Virus record (IMG/VR): IMGVR_UViG_3300037140_000081
Span: 477-64,476 of that record
Source of the DNA: a virus
Taxonomy: Duplodnaviria > Caudoviricetes
Length of the DNA: 64,000 nt
Direction: 5' to 3' (one strand)
Shown: in pieces, positions 29,833-44,381 of the stretch
How the letters are laid out: each line of letters opens with the position of its first letter
Numbering within the stretch: the first letter of the stretch is position 1
Translations under genes and position numbers: made by a program
The notes under the pieces: model-generated
Databases searched by the model: none
The model's input: only the letters and a program-made list of their open reading frames with translations
What the model was told of the DNA's origin: nothing

Positions 29833-29879
29833 GCGGTCAGATACATAATACACCGGGGGTCAATGCCCCCGGTGACCAA

Positions 29880-29956
29880 GCTGCCTTCGTCTAGCGGCCT
29901 AGGACATTCACCCCCTCAGGTGGAAAACGTTGGTTCAAATCCAGCCGGCAGCGCCA
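29880..29956 (+). tRNA. tRNA-Glu-like gene with 8-nt anticodon loop (CCCCTCAG)
   Basis: GCTGCCT-TC-GTCT..GGAC-A-TTCAC[CCCCTCAG]GTGGA-AAAC-GTTGG-TTCAAAT-CCAGC-CGGCAGC-G-CCA; Glu-type D arm, 4-nt variable loop; T7:C66 mismatch. Confidence 0.85.
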
Positions 29957-29978
29957 ATTTAGTAAAGGAATACCCCAT

Positions 29979-30055
29979 GCTCCCTTCGTCTAGCGGCCCA
30001 GGACGCCAGCCCCCTCAGGCAGGAAACGGTGGTTCAAATCCATCAGGGAGCGCCA
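29979..30055 (+). tRNA. tRNA-Glu-like gene with 8-nt anticodon loop (CCCCTCAG)
   Basis: GCTCCCT-TC-GTCT..GGAC-G-CCAGC[CCCCTCAG]GCAGG-AAAC-GGTGG-TTCAAAT-CCATC-AGGGAGC-G-CCA; one A:A mismatch in the anticodon stem. Confidence 0.85.
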
Positions 30056-30169
30056 ATTTAGACCCTCTAGTTGATCGCGATTGCGTATTGCTAGATGGCC
30101 GCTGTAAGTGCGAGAAGCCCATGCGGGACTGTAAGTATCTGTCCAAAACCTATGTGGAGTGTGGACCCA

Positions 30170-30355
30170 ATGAGCACAACTGACATTCCCCTTTATACGC
30201 ATATCAACGCTTGTCCGTGGTCGGGCGTGCCTTGCGAGTGCGACGAGTTCCCGTTCCTAGAGAACGGTGGCGTGCTGCCCAAAGTGTGCAGCAACCTGAT
30301 ACGCGCTAAGATGCCGGCTATGGAGCCGTTCCGCAAGCTAGCCAAGAAGGATTAA
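30170..30355 (+). CDS. Small Cys-rich hypothetical protein
   Basis: GGAG SD; 'CPWSGVPCEC'. Confidence 0.45.
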   Translation: MSTTDIPLYTHINACPWSGVPCECDEFPFLENGGVLPKVCSNLIRAKMPAMEPFRKLAKKD

Positions 30356-31782: not shown

Positions 31783-32051
31783 AACCAGACCACGTTTCAA
31801 CAACTGAAGAAATGATTTTAAATCCTATGGCGCTCCCTGCATATATGCGGGGTTCACGATACTTTAGAATTGAATACATTGATCCTTTAACCGGTCATAG
31901 CAACACCGAAGGCAGCATATATCTTCCAGATGTTCCCGACATTTATGAGGTGCTTGATAAAATTGAGGGGCTCATTCAGGACGCATACAAGCAAGTATCT
32001 GAGAAATCTGCTGAGGAGCAGAAAACAAAAGAAACGTGCCCTCTGACATAA
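31779..32051 (+). CDS. Hypothetical protein
   Basis: ATGA-coupled, 90 aa. Confidence 0.55.
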   Translation: MKPDHVSTTEEMILNPMALPAYMRGSRYFRIEYIDPLTGHSNTEGSIYLPDVPDIYEVLDKIEGLIQDAYKQVSEKSAEEQKTKETCPLT

Positions 32052-32995
32052 AACTACTATTCCTAGATTTCGAGACATATTACGACAACGAGTACTCGTT
32101 GCGTAAAATGCCGACACCCAACTACATTCTGGACCCCAGGTTCGAGTGTCAGATGGTTGCTGTCGAGGAATTTGGCGCGGGTGCCCAGATTATTGATGGG
32201 CCGGATTTCCCGCATTACCTGAAACAATTTGACCCCCGCAAAACAATCACGGTATCTTTCAACGCGCTTTTCGATGCGTCGATATTGGCGTGGCGCTATG
32301 GCTTTGTGCCAGTCCGCACTCTGGATACGATGGGCATGGCGCGGGCGTTGATGGGCCACAAGCTGGTGCGGTTCTCATTGGGAGCCGTTGCGGAAGCCTT
32401 GGGGCTAGGCGCAAAGGGCAACGCGCTGGTCAAGGTGCTGGGTATGCACGCCCCCGAAATCAAATCGCGGGGCTTGTGGCGAGAGTTCAGCGCCTATGCG
32501 TTGCAGGACAACGTGCTGAACCGCGATATATTCCTGCGGCTGATCCCGCACTTTCCTGTATCCGAACGCCGGCTGATGGACTTGACGCTCCGATGCGCCA
32601 TTGAGCCACGCTTCCGCATGGACATAGGGATGCTCACGCAGCACCTGGCGGACGTTCGTGTGGCTAAGGCTGAACTACTTGCGGGGGCTGGTGTCGAACT
32701 GACCCAGTTAATGTCGGCCCAGAAATTTAAGGAAGCCCTGGAAGCGTTGGGCGTCGAGGTTGAAACCAAAGTAACGGTAGCCGCCCAAACTAAAGCAGAC
32801 GCAACAGGTGAACCGCCTGTGCGGACGCCGGCGTTCGCTAAGACCGACGAGTTCATGGCGGGGCTACTGGACCATGAGAACCCTGCGGTGCAGGCGCTAG
32901 CCGCTGCAAGGCTGGGGTTCAAGTCTACCCTGGAGGAAACGCGATGCGAGAAGCTGTTATCCATCGCTAACTTGGATTGGAGTTTCTTGAAATGA
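32036..32995 (+). CDS. DNA polymerase family A, N-terminal part (3'-5' exonuclease and thumb)
   Basis: ExoI 'FLDFETYY', ExoII 'FNALFD', ExoIII 'YALQD', 'ARLGFKST'. Confidence 0.88.
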   Translation: MPSDIKLLFLDFETYYDNEYSLRKMPTPNYILDPRFECQMVAVEEFGAGAQIIDGPDFPHYLKQFDPRKTITVSFNALFDASILAWRYGFVPVRTLDTMGMARALMGHKLVRFSLGAVAEALGLGAKGNALVKVLGMHAPEIKSRGLWREFSAYALQDNVLNRDIFLRLIPHFPVSERRLMDLTLRCAIEPRFRMDIGMLTQHLADVRVAKAELLAGAGVELTQLMSAQKFKEALEALGVEVETKVTVAAQTKADATGEPPVRTPAFAKTDEFMAGLLDHENPAVQALAAARLGFKSTLEETRCEKLLSIANLDWSFLK

Positions 32996-33420
32996 GCAGC
33001 TGGCGCAATTTGATCGGTAGTGACCGGCGCTTGTATTACGCATGGAAGGCTATGCGTAATAGGTGCAACAATAAAAATACCCCGTGTTATCACTCCTACG
33101 GTGGCCGCGGCATTGGCATCTGCAAACGGTGGGACAGCTTCGCCGTATTTGCGAATGACATGCGGTTTCATCCGGGTAAAGGTTGGACGCTGGAACGTAA
33201 AAATAACAACAAAGGATATTCTCCCCGCAACTGTGTGTGGGCAACACGCCAACAACAAGCGATAAATAGACGGACTTGCGTGCTCACCGCGCGGCTCGTC
33301 ATACGTATACGGGCGTTGTATCGTCGAGGAGTATCGCAGGCCCACCTGATAAAAATGTTTGGGGTGGGTAGTTCTCAAGTGTCACGTATCGTACGGGGGC
33401 AAATATGGCAAAGCATATGA
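32992..33420 (+). CDS. HNH homing endonuclease splitting the polymerase
   Basis: 'WKAMRNRC...YGGRGI.IC.RW..F..F..DM...TLERKNNNKGYSPRNCVWAT' plus C-terminal HTH. Confidence 0.9.
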   Translation: MSSWRNLIGSDRRLYYAWKAMRNRCNNKNTPCYHSYGGRGIGICKRWDSFAVFANDMRFHPGKGWTLERKNNNKGYSPRNCVWATRQQQAINRRTCVLTARLVIRIRALYRRGVSQAHLIKMFGVGSSQVSRIVRGQIWQSI

Positions 33421-34364
33421 TGCCAGTGCCGCTGCGCTACGGCGGTGCCCATACGCACCGCCTAAGCGGGGAGTGGGGGATCAATCTCCAAAACCTGCCG
33501 ACTGTGCGCGGAAGCAAAGGCAAGTCAAAGCTGAGGCTGGGCCTCACGGTGCCCGAAGGCCACTCCGTAGTGGCTGCTGACCTAGGCCAGATCGAGGCTA
33601 GGCTGGTGGCATGGATATGCGGTGCCCTGCCACTATTGCAGCAATTTCGGGACAGGCTCGATCCTTATGCAATCATGGGAAGTCTGATCTTTGGATACCC
33701 GGTAGACCCCAAGGTGCATCTGCTGGAGCGGTTCATTGGAAAAACCGCGATCTTGGGGCTAGGCTACGGCTGCGGGGCAACCAAGTTTTACAACATGGTT
33801 ATCATGTTGGCACGGACGCTGGGCATAGACCTAGGGACCATGTGGACTATGGAGCTGGCGCAGCAGTCGGTGGACACATACCGCACGGTGAACGCTCCTA
33901 TCCAGTACAGCTGGCGTAAGCTGGACCAGGCTATCAGGACTGCCTGGCTGGGCAAAGGTGGTCCGGTCCAGTTCTTGCCATGCACAATCGAGTATGGCGA
34001 GGTGAAGTTGCCGAGTGGCTTGTCCCTCAAGTATGACCGACCGGCGTTTGATTTTGAGACCAATGAGCATACGTTCTACTATGGCAAGTTCAAGCACAAG
34101 ATATATGGTGCTAAGCTATTGGAGAACATCGTGCAGGCGCTCGCCCGGATAGTGGTGATGAACGCCGCCCTGCGTATAGCTGACCGGGGCTACAAATTCG
34201 CGCTGCAAGCGCATGACGAGCTGGTTTTCGTGGTGCCAAATTCAGAGGTTGACAAGGCCCTGAAAATCATCCATGAAGAAATGGTGAGACCCCCCTCATG
34301 GGCACCCGACCTACCCCTAACCGCCTCCATCGGTGTTGGTGTCAACTACGGAGAAGCCAAATGA
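33405..34364 (+). CDS. DNA polymerase family A, C-terminal catalytic part
   Basis: 'THRLSG..NLQNLP', motif A 'ADLGQIEAR', motif B 'RFIGKTAILGLGYG', motif C 'AHDELV'. Confidence 0.92.
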   Translation: MAKHMMPVPLRYGGAHTHRLSGEWGINLQNLPTVRGSKGKSKLRLGLTVPEGHSVVAADLGQIEARLVAWICGALPLLQQFRDRLDPYAIMGSLIFGYPVDPKVHLLERFIGKTAILGLGYGCGATKFYNMVIMLARTLGIDLGTMWTMELAQQSVDTYRTVNAPIQYSWRKLDQAIRTAWLGKGGPVQFLPCTIEYGEVKLPSGLSLKYDRPAFDFETNEHTFYYGKFKHKIYGAKLLENIVQALARIVVMNAALRIADRGYKFALQAHDELVFVVPNSEVDKALKIIHEEMVRPPSWAPDLPLTASIGVGVNYGEAK

Positions 34365-36574: not shown

Positions 36575-36801
36575 TGGAGAGTAAGGCCAAACTTATCAAA
36601 GAACAACTTGCCTTCCTTGGGGTAGAGTTTGACAAAGCTGGTGTGACCTACGAGGCTCGCAAGGTGAACACCGGTCATGTGATCCTTAGCTTCACAGTGA
36701 ATGGTAAACCTAAGTCCCTGACGATAGGGGGCTCCCTGGATCGCAACGCCCGGCTACGCAACCGCACGTATCTCCGCAACATGCTGAGGGATAACCTATG
36801 A
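36574..36801 (+). CDS. Hypothetical protein (possible HicA-like fold)
   Basis: Alpha-beta-beta-beta-alpha pattern with 'TGHV'. Confidence 0.4.
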   Translation: MESKAKLIKEQLAFLGVEFDKAGVTYEARKVNTGHVILSFTVNGKPKSLTIGGSLDRNARLRNRTYLRNMLRDNL

Positions 36802-37004
36802 TGATGAAAGCAATCTGCGTTGTGGTCTTCACTGTTGTTATCCTGCTGGCGGTTATGGCCCGATGGCAGTTGCACACTGGCGGCTGTATTTGGTCAGGGC
36901 AAAATGCCACTTGTCCAGTTCGGCCAGCGCAACAGGAAGGGCAATGCCTACCGCAACCAGGATACTGTGACATTGATACGGATTGGCGACCACCGCACAA
37001 ATAA
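36798..37004 (+). CDS. Small membrane-anchored Cys-containing protein
   Basis: N-terminal TM segment; ATGA-coupled. Confidence 0.45.
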   Translation: MMMKAICVVVFTVVILLAVMARWQLHTGGCIWSGQNATCPVRPAQQEGQCLPQPGYCDIDTDWRPPHK

Positions 37005-37048
37005 GTAGCAGGAGTTTGCCCGACGCGGCAAGGACACTAGGAGAAAAA

Positions 37049-37339
37049 ATGAAAGACGACCTTCTTGAAATTCCCGCGTTCCTTAAAATTAGCGCCGAGG
37101 AACGTAAGAAAGCCTGGAAAGATCGACCGTATACAGACCCCTTTGCCGGGGGCCTGACCGACGACCGGAGAGCGCTTGAAAAAGAGCGTGTAGCCGCAAT
37201 CGAAGATGCACGCAAAACAAAGAACGCGCGCGGGCTGGCCAAGATAAAGCAGGCTCACCCAGGACAACGGTGGGATCGCAAGCACAAGATATGGGTGCTT
37301 ATTGATCCAAAGTTTCGTGTAGGAGAAGTCCCAGTATGA
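37049..37339 (+). CDS. Protein with N-terminal FtsZ C-terminal-peptide-like motif
   Basis: AGGAG SD; begins MKDDLLEIPAFLK. Confidence 0.65.
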   Translation: MKDDLLEIPAFLKISAEERKKAWKDRPYTDPFAGGLTDDRRALEKERVAAIEDARKTKNARGLAKIKQAHPGQRWDRKHKIWVLIDPKFRVGEVPV

Positions 37340-37463
37340 CCCCGATCACGTACAAAGGACATGACTATTGCCGTTGTTGCGGGTGGTCTGTTCTTCCTTG
37401 GTATCAAGGGCACTATGTCAAACTCGATCTTGAGTTGTTCGTTCAGTTGGCGAGGGTTAAGCC

Positions 37464-37763
37464 ATGACGCCCGAAGGGAAAGTCAAAGCCAAGGTTAAGA
37501 AATTATTTGCTACCTATGGCGACGATATTTATCAATTTTGGCCCGTGCAGACTGGCATGGGGGCGGCAACACTGGATTGTCTAGCTTGCGCGGCGAGTGA
37601 TTTTTTCTCCGTGGAAACTAAAGTTCCTGGGAAGAAACTGACACCGCGGCAGGAAGCGACCAAAGAACGAATGGAACGCGCAGGTATACGGGTATTTGTT
37701 GTGTATGACGATAATACCCTAGCTGAGTTGAAACGATACCTAGACGAGGTATTTGATCTATAA
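37464..37763 (+). CDS. VRR-NUC nuclease
   Basis: 'TPEGKVK', 'LDCL', 'VETKVPGKKLTPRQ'. Confidence 0.85.
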   Translation: MTPEGKVKAKVKKLFATYGDDIYQFWPVQTGMGAATLDCLACAASDFFSVETKVPGKKLTPRQEATKERMERAGIRVFVVYDDNTLAELKRYLDEVFDL

Positions 37764-41396: not shown

Positions 41397-44381
41397 ATGC
41401 TATCTGATAAAACTCGCGAGTTTATGAGCAGAGTAGTTCCGTGGCCGGGTGCCCAAACAGCACCCGGCTACGTTGATCTTGTATGGGCGCCAGGGTTCAA
41501 CGGTAAGCCGTTTAAGTCGCTGGACGAGTTCATGAAGCTGGCCGACTGGGCCAACCGCAAGGAAACAATCAAGGATTTATACTACTGCCTCAGCCTACAG
41601 GCAGAAGCCGCCAAAAATCACCGTGGAGGTCTGGTCGCCAAACGCCACGCATCGCTGGCGCTGTCGCTCAAGTCCATCTGGCTGGACATTGACGTTAAAG
41701 ACCCCCCAAAGGGGTACACCAATTTGGCCGAAGCGCTGGACGCTCTGCAAGCGTTCCGCATCGCCGCCGACCTGCCGCCACCGTCCGCTCTGGTCCATTC
41801 GGGTGGTGGCCTGCACGTCTACTGGATTTCAGATCGGGCACTATCCAAGGCCGAGTGGGAGCCTTATGCTCAAGGGCTCAAGGCACTGGCGGTCAAGCAT
41901 GAATTGCGTTGCGACGCCGGATTGACCACGGATGCTGCTCGCATCCTGCGTGTCCCGGATACGTTCAACTACAAGACTACACCGCCTCGGCCCGTGAGGC
42001 TGCTGGGGCTGCGGGAACAGTCACTCGACTATGACTTTGCTCGCAGCCTCGGTTTCTTGGCGCTGATATCGCCAATGGCAACGACCGTCGATAATAAGAC
42101 ATTTTTTATTAATGCGGATCAGCCATCGGCGCCATCGCCGCTGTTGGCTGCGCTACCGAAAGAGAGCCTGGCGGCGGGTATAACAGCATACAATGATCAA
42201 CCGCTGGACTTTGATAATATTGTCAACGGCTGCGCGTTCATTCGGGACGCGTTGAAGACCGAGGGCAAGGACTACGACCAGCCTATGTGGAACCTGACCA
42301 CGCTGGCGGCAACCTTCATGGAGCACGGACATGCGTTGGCCCACAGAATGGGTAAAGGACACAGCGGATATACTCCTGAGAGCACTGACAAGCTCTGGGA
42401 TCGAAAAAGTAAAGAACGTAAAGATCGTAATATTGGGTACCCCTCTTGTGCTGCAATTCAAGCTGCCGGCTGCAAGGCGTGCGCGATTTGTCCGAATTTT
42501 GCAAAAGGTAAGTCGCCGCTCAATCTCGGCGCTCCAGTTGTTGCCACGGCGGTAGGGGGCACCGTTACATTAATTGCGCCGCCGGACGATATGTTTTTGC
42601 CCGGGGGCTACATTGTCAACTCTGACGGGTTTATCTGCAAGCTGGGTAAAGACGATATTACCCTACAGCTATTCTACAACAAGTTCTCAAATCCGTGGGT
42701 CAGTGACGAGCCAAAGGCCCTGAACTTTACGATCACTACGGATAAAGGGCACACAAAAGATATCGCTATCCCGCTGGCCGATATGTCGAACAGCGGTAAA
42801 ATGTGGGACCGTATGTATCTCCAAGGGGTGACACCGGTTGTCCATTTGGAAGCACAAGGGAGAGGGTTCATGGTGGCATGGTTGGCACTAATACAGAACG
42901 CACACGAGGCTGCTATATCTGTTCCCTTTGGCTGGTGGCACGATGAAAATGGTAAACGCGCCGGATTTGCTTATGGCGGAAAAATTTTCAAGAACGACAA
43001 TACTATAGACCCATCTGGCTGTGCCGAGAACAACATGCGTAAGTGGTATAAACCAGTCGGTACTCGCGCTGCATGGGATACAGCCATGAAGATGATCTTG
43101 GCAGAAAAGCGCCCCGAGCTAGAGTGTCTTGTGGCAGCCACCTTTGCCGGTCCGCTGGCGTTTGTTCCTGCCGAATACAGCAGCATGTTAAGCGTGTGGG
43201 GCGATAGCGGTGCCCACAAATCCACTGCGGTCAAGGTGGGCATGGCTGTCTGGAGCCATCCGCTAATGTCCAAGGAGGTCGCTCGATCAACTGCCAACCA
43301 TATGATGAAGAAGATGGGTGATCTGCGAAACCTGACTATCTACCAAGATGACATAAAAGACACCGTGGACAAGAAAGACCAGAAGGGCGTCTACACTACG
43401 CTGTTCGGCGGTACCGACGGCATAGACGCCGGCAGGTTGACTTCTGGCGTGGACTATCGTGACCGCGTCGCTTGGCAAACTATGGTCGTGATCTGTTCAA
43501 ACACGAGTTTTGTCGATTATGTCAATGAGGTAAATAAGACCTCCGATGCTGGTATATACCGCTTGTTTGAGTTCCAGCACATGAAGGGGGACGACAATGC
43601 GGCCGGCCGCGTGGCCGTTACAATGAATGCCACCCGCATCACGCAGGAACTGGAACATAATTACGGAGCAGTAGGTATGGAATATGCCAAGATGTTGGGG
43701 AGCAACCCGCAAGAGATTGATACGTTCACCAGAAAAATAGTCGAGGATTTTGCGTTGGAGGTTAAGCAAACGGACCCGGAGCGATATTGGGTCGCCGTGT
43801 GTGGCACGTTGCTGGCCGGTGCGGAATTGGCTAACAGACTGGGCGCGGGTTTAAATGTGCCAGAAATGCGAAAGTTTCTGATCTCCCGCTATATGATGAA
43901 CCGCGAACGGTGCGTTGAGGCCAATACCAAGGGCGGCTCACAGATGAACACGGAAGAAACCTTGACCGGGTTCCTCAAGGCTAAGCTGGGTGAGACACTA
44001 TGGACTGACATAATGCACCAAGGCCCAGGCAAGCCGCACGGAATTCAGTTATTGCATGAACCTGACATTCGGTTTCCTAAACCGATAAACGTCCATTTTG
44101 CTGTCGGAGATCGTACGGTAACAATGTCCACCGTTGCATTCCGCGACTATCTCAAATTGACAAATACGGCGCCTGCCGCAATCGTACGTGGGTTAAAGGT
44201 GCATTATAAAATGTACCGGGAACGCCTCAGCATGGCGGCTGGTACTCGGCATGTGCAGGGGCCGGAAGCGGTTATGATTATCCCAATTCCTGAGGGTTCA
44301 CCATTAGAACCGCTAATGAATGCCTACAAGCAAATGGTTAAGCCAGATGCTATTAGCGGAGCCACGGGAGCGGCAGTTTGA
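41397..44381 (+). CDS. Primase-helicase (RepB-like primase plus DUF927-type helicase)
   Basis: 'WLDID', 'HSGGGLHVYW', 'DAARILRVP', Cys cluster, Walker A-like 'GDSGAHKST', 'HNYG'. Confidence 0.85.
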   Translation: MLSDKTREFMSRVVPWPGAQTAPGYVDLVWAPGFNGKPFKSLDEFMKLADWANRKETIKDLYYCLSLQAEAAKNHRGGLVAKRHASLALSLKSIWLDIDVKDPPKGYTNLAEALDALQAFRIAADLPPPSALVHSGGGLHVYWISDRALSKAEWEPYAQGLKALAVKHELRCDAGLTTDAARILRVPDTFNYKTTPPRPVRLLGLREQSLDYDFARSLGFLALISPMATTVDNKTFFINADQPSAPSPLLAALPKESLAAGITAYNDQPLDFDNIVNGCAFIRDALKTEGKDYDQPMWNLTTLAATFMEHGHALAHRMGKGHSGYTPESTDKLWDRKSKERKDRNIGYPSCAAIQAAGCKACAICPNFAKGKSPLNLGAPVVATAVGGTVTLIAPPDDMFLPGGYIVNSDGFICKLGKDDITLQLFYNKFSNPWVSDEPKALNFTITTDKGHTKDIAIPLADMSNSGKMWDRMYLQGVTPVVHLEAQGRGFMVAWLALIQNAHEAAISVPFGWWHDENGKRAGFAYGGKIFKNDNTIDPSGCAENNMRKWYKPVGTRAAWDTAMKMILAEKRPELECLVAATFAGPLAFVPAEYSSMLSVWGDSGAHKSTAVKVGMAVWSHPLMSKEVARSTANHMMKKMGDLRNLTIYQDDIKDTVDKKDQKGVYTTLFGGTDGIDAGRLTSGVDYRDRVAWQTMVVICSNTSFVDYVNEVNKTSDAGIYRLFEFQHMKGDDNAAGRVAVTMNATRITQELEHNYGAVGMEYAKMLGSNPQEIDTFTRKIVEDFALEVKQTDPERYWVAVCGTLLAGAELANRLGAGLNVPEMRKFLISRYMMNRERCVEANTKGGSQMNTEETLTGFLKAKLGETLWTDIMHQGPGKPHGIQLLHEPDIRFPKPINVHFAVGDRTVTMSTVAFRDYLKLTNTAPAAIVRGLKVHYKMYRERLSMAAGTRHVQGPEAVMIIPIPEGSPLEPLMNAYKQMVKPDAISGATGAAV

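What the first reader, a model, noticed from the sequence alone, without database searches (positions are those of the whole stretch)
37049..37339. Early protein starting with an FtsZ C-terminal peptide mimic (DDLLEIPAFLK)
Seen: after a clear AGGAG SD the ORF starts MKDDLLEIPAFLKIS. Established: the conserved FtsZ tail is D/E-x-L-D/E-I-P-A-F-L-R/K (LEIPAFLRR in alphaproteobacteria) and is the docking site for FtsA and other division regulators. Inference: the protein titrates FtsZ partners and blocks host division.
Basis: partly seen in the sequence, partly recalled or inferred. Interest (0 to 1): 0.7.

Follow-up and report, generated by a model that had tools for sequence, protein, structure and literature searches.

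The report
Phage protein copying the FtsZ tail
A small phage protein begins with a near-exact copy of the short tail peptide that the bacterial division protein FtsZ uses to dock its partners, and the same peptide recurs on many unrelated phage proteins, so phages may use it to plug into the host's division machinery.

Summary
ORF 37049-37339 (+, 96 aa) follows AGGAG and starts MKDDLLEIPAFLKIS. Real rhizobial FtsZ proteins end ...EDDQLEIPAFLRRQS[SN], which is 9 of 12 identical to the phage protein. A profile of five FtsZ tails hits the 64-kb phage genome once, at this spot (E 3.5e-5).

The gene belongs to an unnamed, metagenome-only family. It has 45 representative clusters and no Pfam or PHROG family. 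The family keeps D-x-L-[DE]-I-P-x-[FW]-L-[KR] near the N-terminus.

The strict decapeptide D-x-L-[DE]-I-P-A-F-L-[KR] occurs at 38 loci in IMG/VR, against 1 for a reversed-order control. It sits at N-termini of small proteins and at C-terminal tails of DNA methyltransferases.

Best reading (0.4): a docking peptide that mimics the FtsZ tail and competes for FtsZ-tail receptors such as FtsA. Binding and a division block were not shown.

Rivals: the same peptide with another receptor or purpose, or a structural element that resembles the tail by coincidence.

Points against: the family keeps features FtsZ lacks, namely a hydrophobic residue at +5 and a following E-x-R..AW helix. A is replaced by E or D in 27 of 49 members.

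The parts
37039..37043 (+). Shine-Dalgarno AGGAG, 5 nt before the ATG
   Evidence: Read directly.
37049..37339 (+). ORF of 96 aa (P0001), a member of an unnamed metagenomic phage protein family
   Evidence: Four close relatives. 45 representative clusters at E<=1e-3. No Pfam or PHROG family.
37055..37087 (+). Residues 3-13, DDLLEIPAFLK: the FtsZ-tail-like peptide
   Evidence: Only hit of the FtsZ-tail profile A6 in the phage genome, covering residues 3-12 (37055-37084), E 3.5e-5. 9/12 identical to the R. leguminosarum FtsZ tail. Family conservation.
37094..37120 (+). Residues 16-24, a short helix (AEERKKAWK) holding the family-conserved R19 and W23. It is part of the conserved N-terminal module and is absent from FtsZ.
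   Evidence: AF2 model, helix 16-24. R in 44 of 49 and W in 45 of 49 members.
37124..37159 (+). Residues 26-37, a P/G-rich variable linker
   Evidence: No secondary structure in the model, and pLDDT about 70 for block 31-40. Length and sequence vary across the family and the wider module-bearing set.
37160..37255 (+). Residues 38-69, a long charged helix with the conserved block K-x-K-N-A-x-x-L-A-x-[IL]-K
   Evidence: AF2 helix 38-69, pLDDT 93-98. Conservation. Structure searches found only generic long-helix matches.
37265..37300 (+). Residues 73-84, a basic beta-hairpin (QRWDRKHKIWVL) with invariant W82
   Evidence: AF2 strands 73-76 and 81-84. W82 invariant in 49 of 49.

Best explanation
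The ORF is a real phage gene in the replication/recombination gene block. Its first 13 residues copy the conserved C-terminal peptide of alphaproteobacterial FtsZ, the tail through which FtsZ docks FtsA, MinC and other partners.

My reading is that this peptide is a short docking motif. It occupies the FtsZ-tail pocket of host division proteins, with FtsA as first candidate and MinC or another membrane anchor next. It thereby competes with FtsZ and delays or blocks division of the infected cell.

The rest of the protein is a short helix, a linker, a long basic helix and a hairpin. It would add affinity, oligomerisation or binding to DNA or membrane, because a lone tail peptide binds weakly.

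Shown here: the sequence match, its conservation, its uniqueness in host and phage genomes, and its enrichment in viral contigs. Inferred: binding, the receptor, and the effect on division.
For: 1. Sequence. DDLLEIPAFLK against rhizobial FtsZ EDDQLEIPAFLR is 9/12 identical and 11/12 positive. Tistrella FtsZ carries DLLEIPAFL exactly.

2. Reciprocal specificity.
- The FtsZ-tail profile A6 hits the phage genome once, at this peptide (E 3.5e-5).
- The family's N-terminal module profile A4 has the FtsZ tail as best hit in a 3.72-Mb S. meliloti record (E 0.0146, 17.6 bits).
- The FtsZ tail is one of only two hits in the E. coli K-12 chromosome.
- FtsZ tails are 3 of the 5 hits among 177,635 PDB sequences (E 0.35-1.8).

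3. Conservation in 49 family members. Counts are P 49, I/L/V at -1 49, L at +3 46, F/W/Y at +2 41, K/R at +4 32, L at -3 29, D/E at -5 32 and D/E at -2 26. These are the positions shared by FtsZ tails. I374 and L378 of E. coli FtsZ are reported as critical for ZipA, FtsA, MinC and SlmA (PMC4117426, passages). The position that varies most (+1: A 13, E/D 27) also varies among natural tails. A cyanobacterial tail reads LDIPDFLRKR (PMC7714070, passage), and IPDFL is the core in cyanobacteria and plant FtsZ2 (PMC11285052, passages).

4. The peptide is portable. The strict decapeptide pattern gives 38 loci in IMG/VR against 1 for the same codons in reversed order. Its position is within the first 13 residues in 10 of 38 loci, within 22 residues of the C-terminus in 15 of 38, and elsewhere in 13 of 38. 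A second, unrelated small-protein family (L036/L037) keeps MEYD[LT]LEIPAFL[KR]R at about 50% overall identity.

5. Host. The only clear cultured relatives are Rhizobium phages, with 54% identity for the SNF2 helicase and 32% for the DUF927 protein.

6. Precedent. Fragments of the extreme FtsZ C-terminus (354-383) inhibit E. coli growth in vivo (PMC10769210, passages). A free tail peptide competes with FtsZ for SlmA in vitro (PMC4117426).
Against: - No binding and no phenotype were measured.
- The family conserves features that FtsZ tails lack: a hydrophobic residue at +5 (I/L/V/M in 46 of 49) and the following [ST]-x-E-x-R-x-x-A-W helix (R 44, W 45 of 49). The conserved unit is therefore about 25 residues, not just the tail peptide.
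- K/R at +4 is replaced by I/L/V in 14 of 49 members. The aromatic at +2 is replaced by C/S/A/I in 8 of 49.
- Only 21 of 76 family and module proteins score 9 bits or more against a proteobacterial tail profile.
- A family member with IPDFLR (L013) sits in a phage whose polymerase is again closest to the Rhizobium phages. So +1 does not follow the A of alphaproteobacterial tails.
- AF2 gives pLDDT 90 and 82 to residue blocks 11-20 and 21-30. That fits an ordered element that could pack in cis.
- Free tail peptides bind weakly, at 20-81 uM (PMC4117426).
- IPAFL-like strings also occur inside folded proteins: KdsA and an MFS transporter.
- The motif on DNA methyltransferases is not obviously explained by a division block.
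- Look-elsewhere effect: see the observation check.
Confidence: 0.4

Rival explanations
1. The peptide is a true FtsZ-tail-like docking motif, but its receptor or purpose is not a division block. Possible uses are recognition by ClpX (timed degradation, or competition for the protease), or recruitment of a host factor to DNA-bound phage proteins. Under this reading the 96-aa protein is one of many carriers of a general phage adaptor peptide.
For: - Of 20 motif-bearing ORFs scanned, 10 are DNA methyltransferases: 7 MT-A70 (one also with ParB_N) and 3 N6_N4_Mtase. The motif mostly lies near the C-terminus, and in several cases follows a P/A-rich stretch.
- The L036/L037 family joins the motif to an RGRPRK stretch, which I recall as AT-hook-like.
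- One module-bearing protein (P0089) carries PF11994.
- The C-terminal half of P0001 is strongly basic.
- The last 18 residues of E. coli FtsZ are listed as a ClpXP degron (PMC8138137, Table 1 passage). ClpX is named among the tail's partners (PMC4117426).
Against: - The conserved residues are the hydrophobic I, F and L face used by FtsA, ZipA, MinC and SlmA. No receptor other than division proteins and ClpX is documented for this peptide in what I read.
- A degron would not need to copy ten residues of FtsZ.
- Nothing here shows that P0001 binds DNA.
Confidence: 0.25
2. The likeness to FtsZ is coincidental. On this reading IPxFL-x-I plus the E-x-R..AW helix is a structural or oligomerisation element of a small helical phage protein, packing on its own long amphipathic helix. 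Alternatively it binds an unrelated partner of the replication/recombination module.
For: - The conserved block is longer than, and different from, the FtsZ tail after +4.
- pLDDT is high for residues 11-30.
- Substitutions at +2 (C/S/A/I) and +4 (I/L/V) look like those of a buried position.
- All module-bearing proteins also keep a basic amphipathic helix downstream.
- Similar strings occur in folded proteins.
- The gene sits among nuclease, helicase and polymerase genes here and in L013.
- About nine chance matches of this strength are expected over the whole scan (my arithmetic).
Against: - The upstream D-x-L-[DE] positions are conserved as well, although they lie before the predicted helices.
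- The linker between the module and the long helix varies widely in length and composition, which fits poorly with a fixed intramolecular packing.
- The decapeptide is enriched 38 to 1 over the control and occurs on unrelated proteins at either terminus.
- An independent family keeps it invariant.
Confidence: 0.3
3. The ORF is not expressed; it is a chance open frame.
For: No expression data were examined. Long ORFs also lie on the opposite strand across the region.
Against: - A good SD at the right spacing.
- Tight packing with the flanking + strand genes.
- Homologs at 76-84% identity in the same syntenic spot.
- 45 more distant clusters with conserved residues across the whole length.
Confidence: 0.03

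Closest known systems
The conserved C-terminal peptide (tail, CTC) of FtsZ itself
   Same: The consensus D-x-L-[DE]-I-P-A-F-L-[RK] is shared. The phage peptide is 9/12 identical to rhizobial tails. It lies at a protein end and is preceded by acidic residues.
   Different: It is N-terminal rather than C-terminal. It is followed by I-S-A-E-E-R-K-K-A-W rather than RQ[AS][NS]-stop. It sits on a 96-aa protein with no FtsZ domain; PF12327 is absent from the phage. DNA identity to S. meliloti ftsZ over the 33 nt is 23/33, with most differences at third positions. There is therefore no sign of a recent capture.
Small phage inhibitors of FtsZ: lambda Kil, T7 Gp0.4, T5 Hdi, P1 Icd
   Same: They are small early phage proteins that interfere with host division (PMC11897509, passages).
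   Different: According to that paper they act on FtsZ itself, on its globular part or its polymerisation. The protein here would act on FtsZ's partners by imitating FtsZ. No sequence relation was detected: no Pfam or PHROG hit and no match in 50,697 phage records.
Inhibitory fragments of the FtsZ C-terminus made in the laboratory (fragment scans of E. coli FtsZ)
   Same: A free copy of the tail inhibits growth in vivo and is predicted to bind FtsA subdomain 2B (PMC10769210, passages).
   Different: Those are artificial fragments of the host's own gene. This is a natural phage gene with extra conserved parts.
Short-linear-motif mimicry by eukaryotic viruses (recalled, not from a call)
   Same: A virus copies a short host docking peptide to enter a host interaction hub. 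The peptide is portable between unrelated viral proteins.
   Different: The host here is a bacterium and the hub is the divisome. My searches found no phage case in print.

Membership tests
FtsZ-tail-type docking peptide (works like an FtsZ CTC) | Sequence consensus [DE]-x-L-[DE]-[IV]-P-x-[FY]-[LM]-[RK] | tested here: met
   P0001 residues 3-13 meet it. The family meets it in part: P 49/49, I/L/V 49/49, F/W/Y 41/49, L 46/49, K/R 32/49.
FtsZ-tail-type docking peptide (works like an FtsZ CTC) | Lies at a protein end, separated from the folded part by a flexible stretch | tested here: inconclusive
   It is N-terminal in P0001 and within the first 13 residues in 10 of 38 strict-motif loci. In P0001, however, it runs straight into a conserved helix (residues 16-24) predicted with pLDDT 82-90. 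The variable linker comes only after that helix.
FtsZ-tail-type docking peptide (works like an FtsZ CTC) | Binds FtsA, ZipA, MinC, SlmA, ZapD or ClpX through the I, F and L side chains | not testable with these tools
   This needs binding assays with wild-type and I8/F11/L12 mutant peptides.
FtsZ protein family | Tubulin/FtsZ GTPase domain and FtsZ_C domain | tested here: not met
   PF12327 has no match in the phage genome, while 13 of 14 control genomes match. P0001 has no Pfam hit.
Known phage FtsZ inhibitors (Kil, Gp0.4, Hdi, Icd) | Sequence relation to one of these proteins | tested here: not met
   No Pfam or PHROG family at E<=0.01 for any of the 49 members. tblastn of P0001 against 50,697 phage records gave no match at E<=1.
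Known phage FtsZ inhibitors (Kil, Gp0.4, Hdi, Icd) | Direct action on FtsZ polymerisation | not tested
The proposed mode is different: competition for FtsZ's partners.
Beta-clamp-binding motif (QL[SD]LF / QLxLxL; consensus recalled) | Q at position 1 and a hydrophobic pair ending the penta- or hexapeptide | tested here: not met
   No Q is present. L-E-I-P-A-F has an extra residue before the final aromatic. The consensus is from memory.
SSB C-terminal tip mimic (D-D-D-I-P-F-COOH; recalled) | The motif ends the protein, so that the Phe carboxylate is free | tested here: not met
   The motif is N-terminal, carries an inserted A and is followed by 83 more residues.

The most novel reading that the evidence does not exclude
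Phages of alphaproteobacteria and other hosts carry a portable copy of the FtsZ tail peptide. They graft it onto unrelated proteins, namely small early proteins and DNA methyltransferases, to plug into the host's FtsZ-tail receptors. This would be the first described case of short-linear-motif mimicry of a bacterial cytoskeletal hub by viruses. Because several carriers appear to be DNA-binding proteins, the peptide may tether or sequester FtsA-type partners on DNA, giving a phage-made form of nucleoid occlusion.
Probability: 0.3. Interest if true: 0.85.

Novelty: new variant of a known kind. Interest (0 to 1): 0.68.

Why it matters
Phage proteins that stop host division are known, but those I read about act on FtsZ itself. 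A natural protein that imitates FtsZ's docking tail would be a different mode of host takeover. It would also give a simple, mutation-testable handle on the divisome of rhizobia and relatives, where the partners of the FtsZ tail are less well mapped than in E. coli.

The wider result may matter more than this one gene. The decapeptide is enriched 38 to 1 in viral contigs. It sits on two unrelated small-protein families and on two families of DNA methyltransferases. This points to a reusable viral docking peptide in bacteria, and it makes the question of what else binds the FtsZ tail directly testable.

Tried and rejected
- Complex prediction. Complex prediction with Swiss-Prot FTSA_RHIME and alignment A2 returned 'no answer' (score 0.00, controls not run). 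It is evidence neither for nor against binding.
- Fold searches with the AF2 model. Foldseek against PDB found nothing at E<=0.001. VIA-align wide gave a best Z of 4.1, all generic long helices.
- ESM Atlas gave no usable feature hit. Its own model was poor, with pTM 0.23.
- Family libraries. Pfam and PHROGs found no family for P0001 or for any of the 49 members at the thresholds used. The best was phrog_24163 at E 0.11.
- Cultured phages. There was no DNA or protein match for the gene. The syntenic spot in Rhizobium phage RHph_TM3_14A holds unrelated small ORFs, and that genome has no module match.
- Prophage or host copies, which would have allowed comparing each member with its host's FtsZ tail:
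  - Two scans of 185,579 species genomes found no relative. One search matched 64 stretches, none related. One search gave 1 hit, a 21-residue frame in a Lachnospiraceae MAG, taken as chance.
  - Relatives of a virus record cannot be drawn.
  - A locus from another collection cannot serve as a centre.
  - So the covariation test could not be run.
- P0006 and P0016 found no relatives in IMG/VR.
- Cluster look-up gave no names or hosts.
- Recent capture from host ftsZ: 23 of 33 nt identical to S. meliloti, with differences mostly at third positions. This does not indicate recent transfer.
- Beta-clamp motif and SSB-tip mimic were considered because the carriers are DNA enzymes. Both were rejected on motif shape (see Membership tests; the consensus sequences are recalled).
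- Coiled coil. By eye the long helix has no regular heptad pattern. This was not computed.
- The ZipA-FtsZ structure paper (PMC313961) is not held. My recollection that A376 does not contact ZipA is therefore unverified and is not used as evidence.
- Supplements of the papers were not opened.

Full report
**What is there**

The window is an IMG/VR virus record of 64,476 bases that CheckV rates complete. At 37049-37339 on the + strand lies a 96-codon ORF. It is preceded by AGGAG (37039-37043) and a 5-nt spacer. It translates to MKDDLLEIPAFLKISAEERKKAWKDRPYTDPFAGGLTDDRRALEKERVAAIEDARKTKNARGLAKIKQAHPGQRWDRKHKIWVLIDPKFRVGEVPV.

It sits in a tightly packed + strand block:
- a family A DNA polymerase split in two;
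- a dATP/dGTP diphosphohydrolase-like protein;
- a PD-(D/E)XK nuclease;
- two small ORFs, then the ORF in question;
- a 43-codon ORF;
- a 99-aa ORF that aligns in position with the gene annotated VRR-NUC in the related Rhizobium phage;
- an SNF2 helicase (name from the annotation of the Rhizobium phage hit);
- endonuclease VII;
- a DUF927 protein.

No promoter-like or terminator-like site of its own lies next to the gene. 'Early' is therefore plausible but not shown.

**Host**

There is no DNA match in 50,697 cultured phage records. The SNF2 helicase (54% identity, at the same map position) and the DUF927 protein (32%) have four Rhizobium phages as their only close cultured relatives: RHph_TM3_14A, TM27A, TM27B and TM29. 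G+C is 53-57%. A rhizobial or other alphaproteobacterial host is likely but not proven.

**Is the peptide really FtsZ-like?**

I fetched real ftsZ genes from PLSDB records that hold chromosomal dcw clusters. The proteins end as follows:
- S. meliloti: HEDDQLEIPAFLRRQSS;
- R. leguminosarum: QEDDQLEIPAFLRRQSN;
- Tistrella: ENDLLEIPAFLRRQAN;
- Paracoccus: GDNVEIPAFLRRQAN;
- E. coli: DYLDIPAFLRKQAD.

BLASTP of the phage protein against the R. leguminosarum tail gives 9/12 identities and 11/12 positives.

A profile of the five tails finds one match in six frames of the phage genome. It covers residues 3-12 of this ORF (E 3.5e-5, 20.9 bits).

In the other direction I used a profile of the family's N-terminal module (A4, 12 sequences):
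- The FtsZ tail is its best match in a 3.72-Mb S. meliloti record (E 0.0146). The runner-up is a stretch inside an MFS transporter.
- It finds the FtsZ tail as one of only two matches in the E. coli K-12 chromosome.
- It puts FtsZ tails at 3 of its 5 hits among 177,635 PDB sequences, none significant alone (E 0.35-1.8).

The tail profile's only other hits in host records are an internal IPAFL stretch of KdsA.

At the DNA level the phage and S. meliloti share 23 of 33 bases, and most differences are at third positions. The likeness is therefore kept at the protein level and is not a recent capture.

**The family**

The word-index search found four close relatives. The exhaustive search found 45 representative clusters at E<=1e-3. 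All are metagenomic, with no names or hosts. No member matches Pfam or PHROGs at the thresholds used.

In the 49-sequence alignment the N-terminal motif is the best-kept part. With P as position 0, the counts out of 49 are:

| Position | Residues |
|---|---|
| 0 | P 49 |
| -1 | I 39, L 7, V 3 |
| +2 | F 35, W 5, Y 1, C 5, S/A/I 3 |
| +3 | L 46 |
| +4 | K 21, R 11, I/L/V 14 |
| -5 | D 25, E 7 |
| -3 | L 29 |
| -2 | D 14, E 12 |
| +1 | E 14, A 13, D 13 |

These are the positions shared by FtsZ tails. The family also keeps what FtsZ lacks: I/L/V/M at +5 (46 of 49), then [ST]-x-E-x-R-x-x-A-W (R 44, W 45). A second conserved block lies near the C-terminus: K-x-K-N-A-x-x-L-A-x-L-K-x-x-H-x-G-E-R-Y-D-R-K-x-K-x-W-V, with W82 invariant.

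Some members carry 20-45 extra residues before the motif, so it is not always terminal. Against a proteobacterial tail profile, 21 of 76 family and module proteins score 9 bits or more, and 3 of 76 give no hit.

**Structure**

AF2 with the 49-row alignment gives mean pLDDT 84 and pTM 0.48. The model has a helix at 16-24, a long helix at 38-69 and a hairpin at 73-84. Residues 1-10 have pLDDT 68, and blocks 11-20 and 21-30 have 90 and 82. No known fold matches.

The model cannot tell whether I8, F11 and L12 are free or packed on the long helix. I could not inspect contacts.

**A wider module**

A degenerate DNA pattern for the family module found 11 loci in IMG/VR. In the species genomes it found only one, taken as chance.

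A profile search then listed 33 proteins at E<=10 among 8,000 candidates scored. Of these, 32 are 78-167 aa with no Pfam domain. One is 319 aa with PF11994. They share the N-terminal module and a basic amphipathic helix. Their linkers and C-termini differ widely.

Each phage record examined holds one copy: the window's own genome (1 hit) and 4 of the 5 other records searched. The Rhizobium phage has none.

In four loci the gene follows an AlpA-like ORF in integrase-bearing elements. In L013 it follows a PD-(D/E)XK-like nuclease ORF, as it does here (these names are by eye, not scanned).

**The decapeptide is a recurrent phage motif**

The strict pattern D-x-L-[DE]-I-P-A-F-L-[KRQHNS] matched 38 loci in IMG/VR. 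The same codons in reversed order matched 1. The window's own record is left out of such scans.

The 38 fall into 18 groups by a crude shared-6-mer clustering. The motif's position is as follows:
- within the first 13 residues in 10 loci;
- within 22 residues of the C-terminus in 15 loci;
- elsewhere in 13 loci, two of which (L044, L059) look like noise.

I scanned 20 of these ORFs against Pfam:
- 7 are MT-A70 methyltransferases, one also with ParB_N;
- 3 are N6_N4_Mtase;
- 10 have no family above the cut-off.

In several methyltransferases the peptide follows a P/A-rich stretch, much as in FtsZ.

An independent low-G+C family (L036/L037, 122-150 aa) starts MEYD[LT]LEIPAFL[KR]R and continues with RGRPRK. 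L, I, P, A, F, L and R are invariant across five sequences at about 50% identity.

G+C of the 38 loci runs from 0.35 to 0.69. The motif is therefore not confined to one phage or host group.

**Mechanism**

What I read supports the logic:
- The tail DYLDIPAFLRKQAD binds ZipA, FtsA, MinC, ZapD, ClpX and SlmA.
- A free 14-mer binds weakly (20-81 uM), yet competes with FtsZ for SlmA (PMC4117426, passages).
- Fragments 354-383 of FtsZ inhibit E. coli in vivo and are predicted to sit on FtsA subdomain 2B (PMC10769210, passages).
- Natural tails tolerate D at +1 (PMC7714070 and PMC11285052, passages).

I therefore take the N-terminal peptide to be a docking motif for FtsZ-tail receptors, which competes with FtsZ. 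The basic helix-hairpin would supply avidity or a second contact. This is inference; no binding was shown.

The methyltransferase carriers and the ClpXP degron listing of the tail (PMC8138137, Table 1 passage) keep open a second reading: the same peptide serving another receptor or purpose. The extra conserved helix, the substitutions at +2 and +4, and the high pLDDT of residues 11-30 keep open a third: a structural element with a coincidental likeness.

**Comparison with what is known**

The phage division inhibitors named in what I read (Kil, Gp0.4, Hdi, Icd) act on FtsZ itself (PMC11897509, passages). None is related in sequence.

Seven literature searches found no paper describing a phage protein or methyltransferase with this peptide. 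They covered the peptide strings and phage/FtsZ/mimic/MT-A70 terms. The library lacks most subscription journals, and supplements were not opened.

**Verdict**

The mimicry is real at the sequence level and statistically supported as a recurrent phage motif. The receptor and the effect on division remain to be tested.

Noticed in passing
IMG/VR loci L026-L030, L033, L038, L041, L042, L046 (and relatives L039, L040, L043, L045, L052, L055, L056, L058, L060): Phage or prophage DNA methyltransferases of two Pfam families (MT-A70, N6_N4_Mtase; one with ParB_N) carry D-G-L-D-I-P-A-F-L-R-R. The motif is mostly a few residues from the C-terminus, in several cases after a P/A-rich stretch, like the FtsZ linker plus tail. 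I found no description of this in the papers searched.
   Followed up: partly
L036:623-988, L037:1153-1602 and P0094-P0096: A second, unrelated small phage protein family (122-150 aa, loci of about 40% G+C) starts MEYD[LT]LEIPAFL[KR]R. This is followed by an invariant RGRPRK (recalled as AT-hook-like) and a conserved domain with no Pfam family.
   Followed up: partly
window 32036-34364: The family A DNA polymerase gene is split. ORF 32036-32995 matches residues 3-307, and ORF 33405-34364 matches residues 311-639, of the single 639-aa polymerase of L013 (56% and 61% identity). A 147-codon ORF (32977-33420) with a weak HTH match lies between them and overlaps both ends. It looks like an inserted mobile gene.
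   Followed up: partly
window 29880-29956 and 29979-30055: Two tandem tRNA genes pass the Rfam tRNA threshold (33.7 and 40.7 bits), but ARAGORN cannot name them and reports a two-base anticodon 'ct'. By eye the D-arm looks like tRNA-Glu and the anticodon loop seems one base short (six bases). They lie inside ORF 29863-30183.
   Followed up: partly
window 36798-37004 and 37336-37467: The ORF is flanked by a 68-codon ORF with a hydrophobic N-terminal stretch and several Cys, also present in the related contig L001. On the other side is a 43-codon Cys-rich ORF (CRCCGW) whose start overlaps the stop of the ORF. Neither was studied.
   Followed up: no
L001:6243-6743: In the closest related contig a 166-codon ORF is inserted between the homolog of this gene and the 101-codon ORF that corresponds to window ORF 37464-37763. 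Its N-terminus resembles the ORF that splits the polymerase in the window. This suggests a mobile gene family moving within these phages.
   Followed up: no
window 41397-44381: The 994-aa protein with a DUF927 domain is annotated 'putative integrase protein' in the related Rhizobium phages. The Pfam hit and its place in the replication block suggest a primase/helicase-type protein instead.
   Followed up: no
CP090106.1 (PLSDB): A 3.72-Mb record labelled 'plasmid pSymB' of S. meliloti carries the ddl-ftsQ-ftsA-ftsZ-lpxC cluster, as well as kdsA, eno and CTP synthase. It looks like the chromosome under a wrong label.
   Followed up: no
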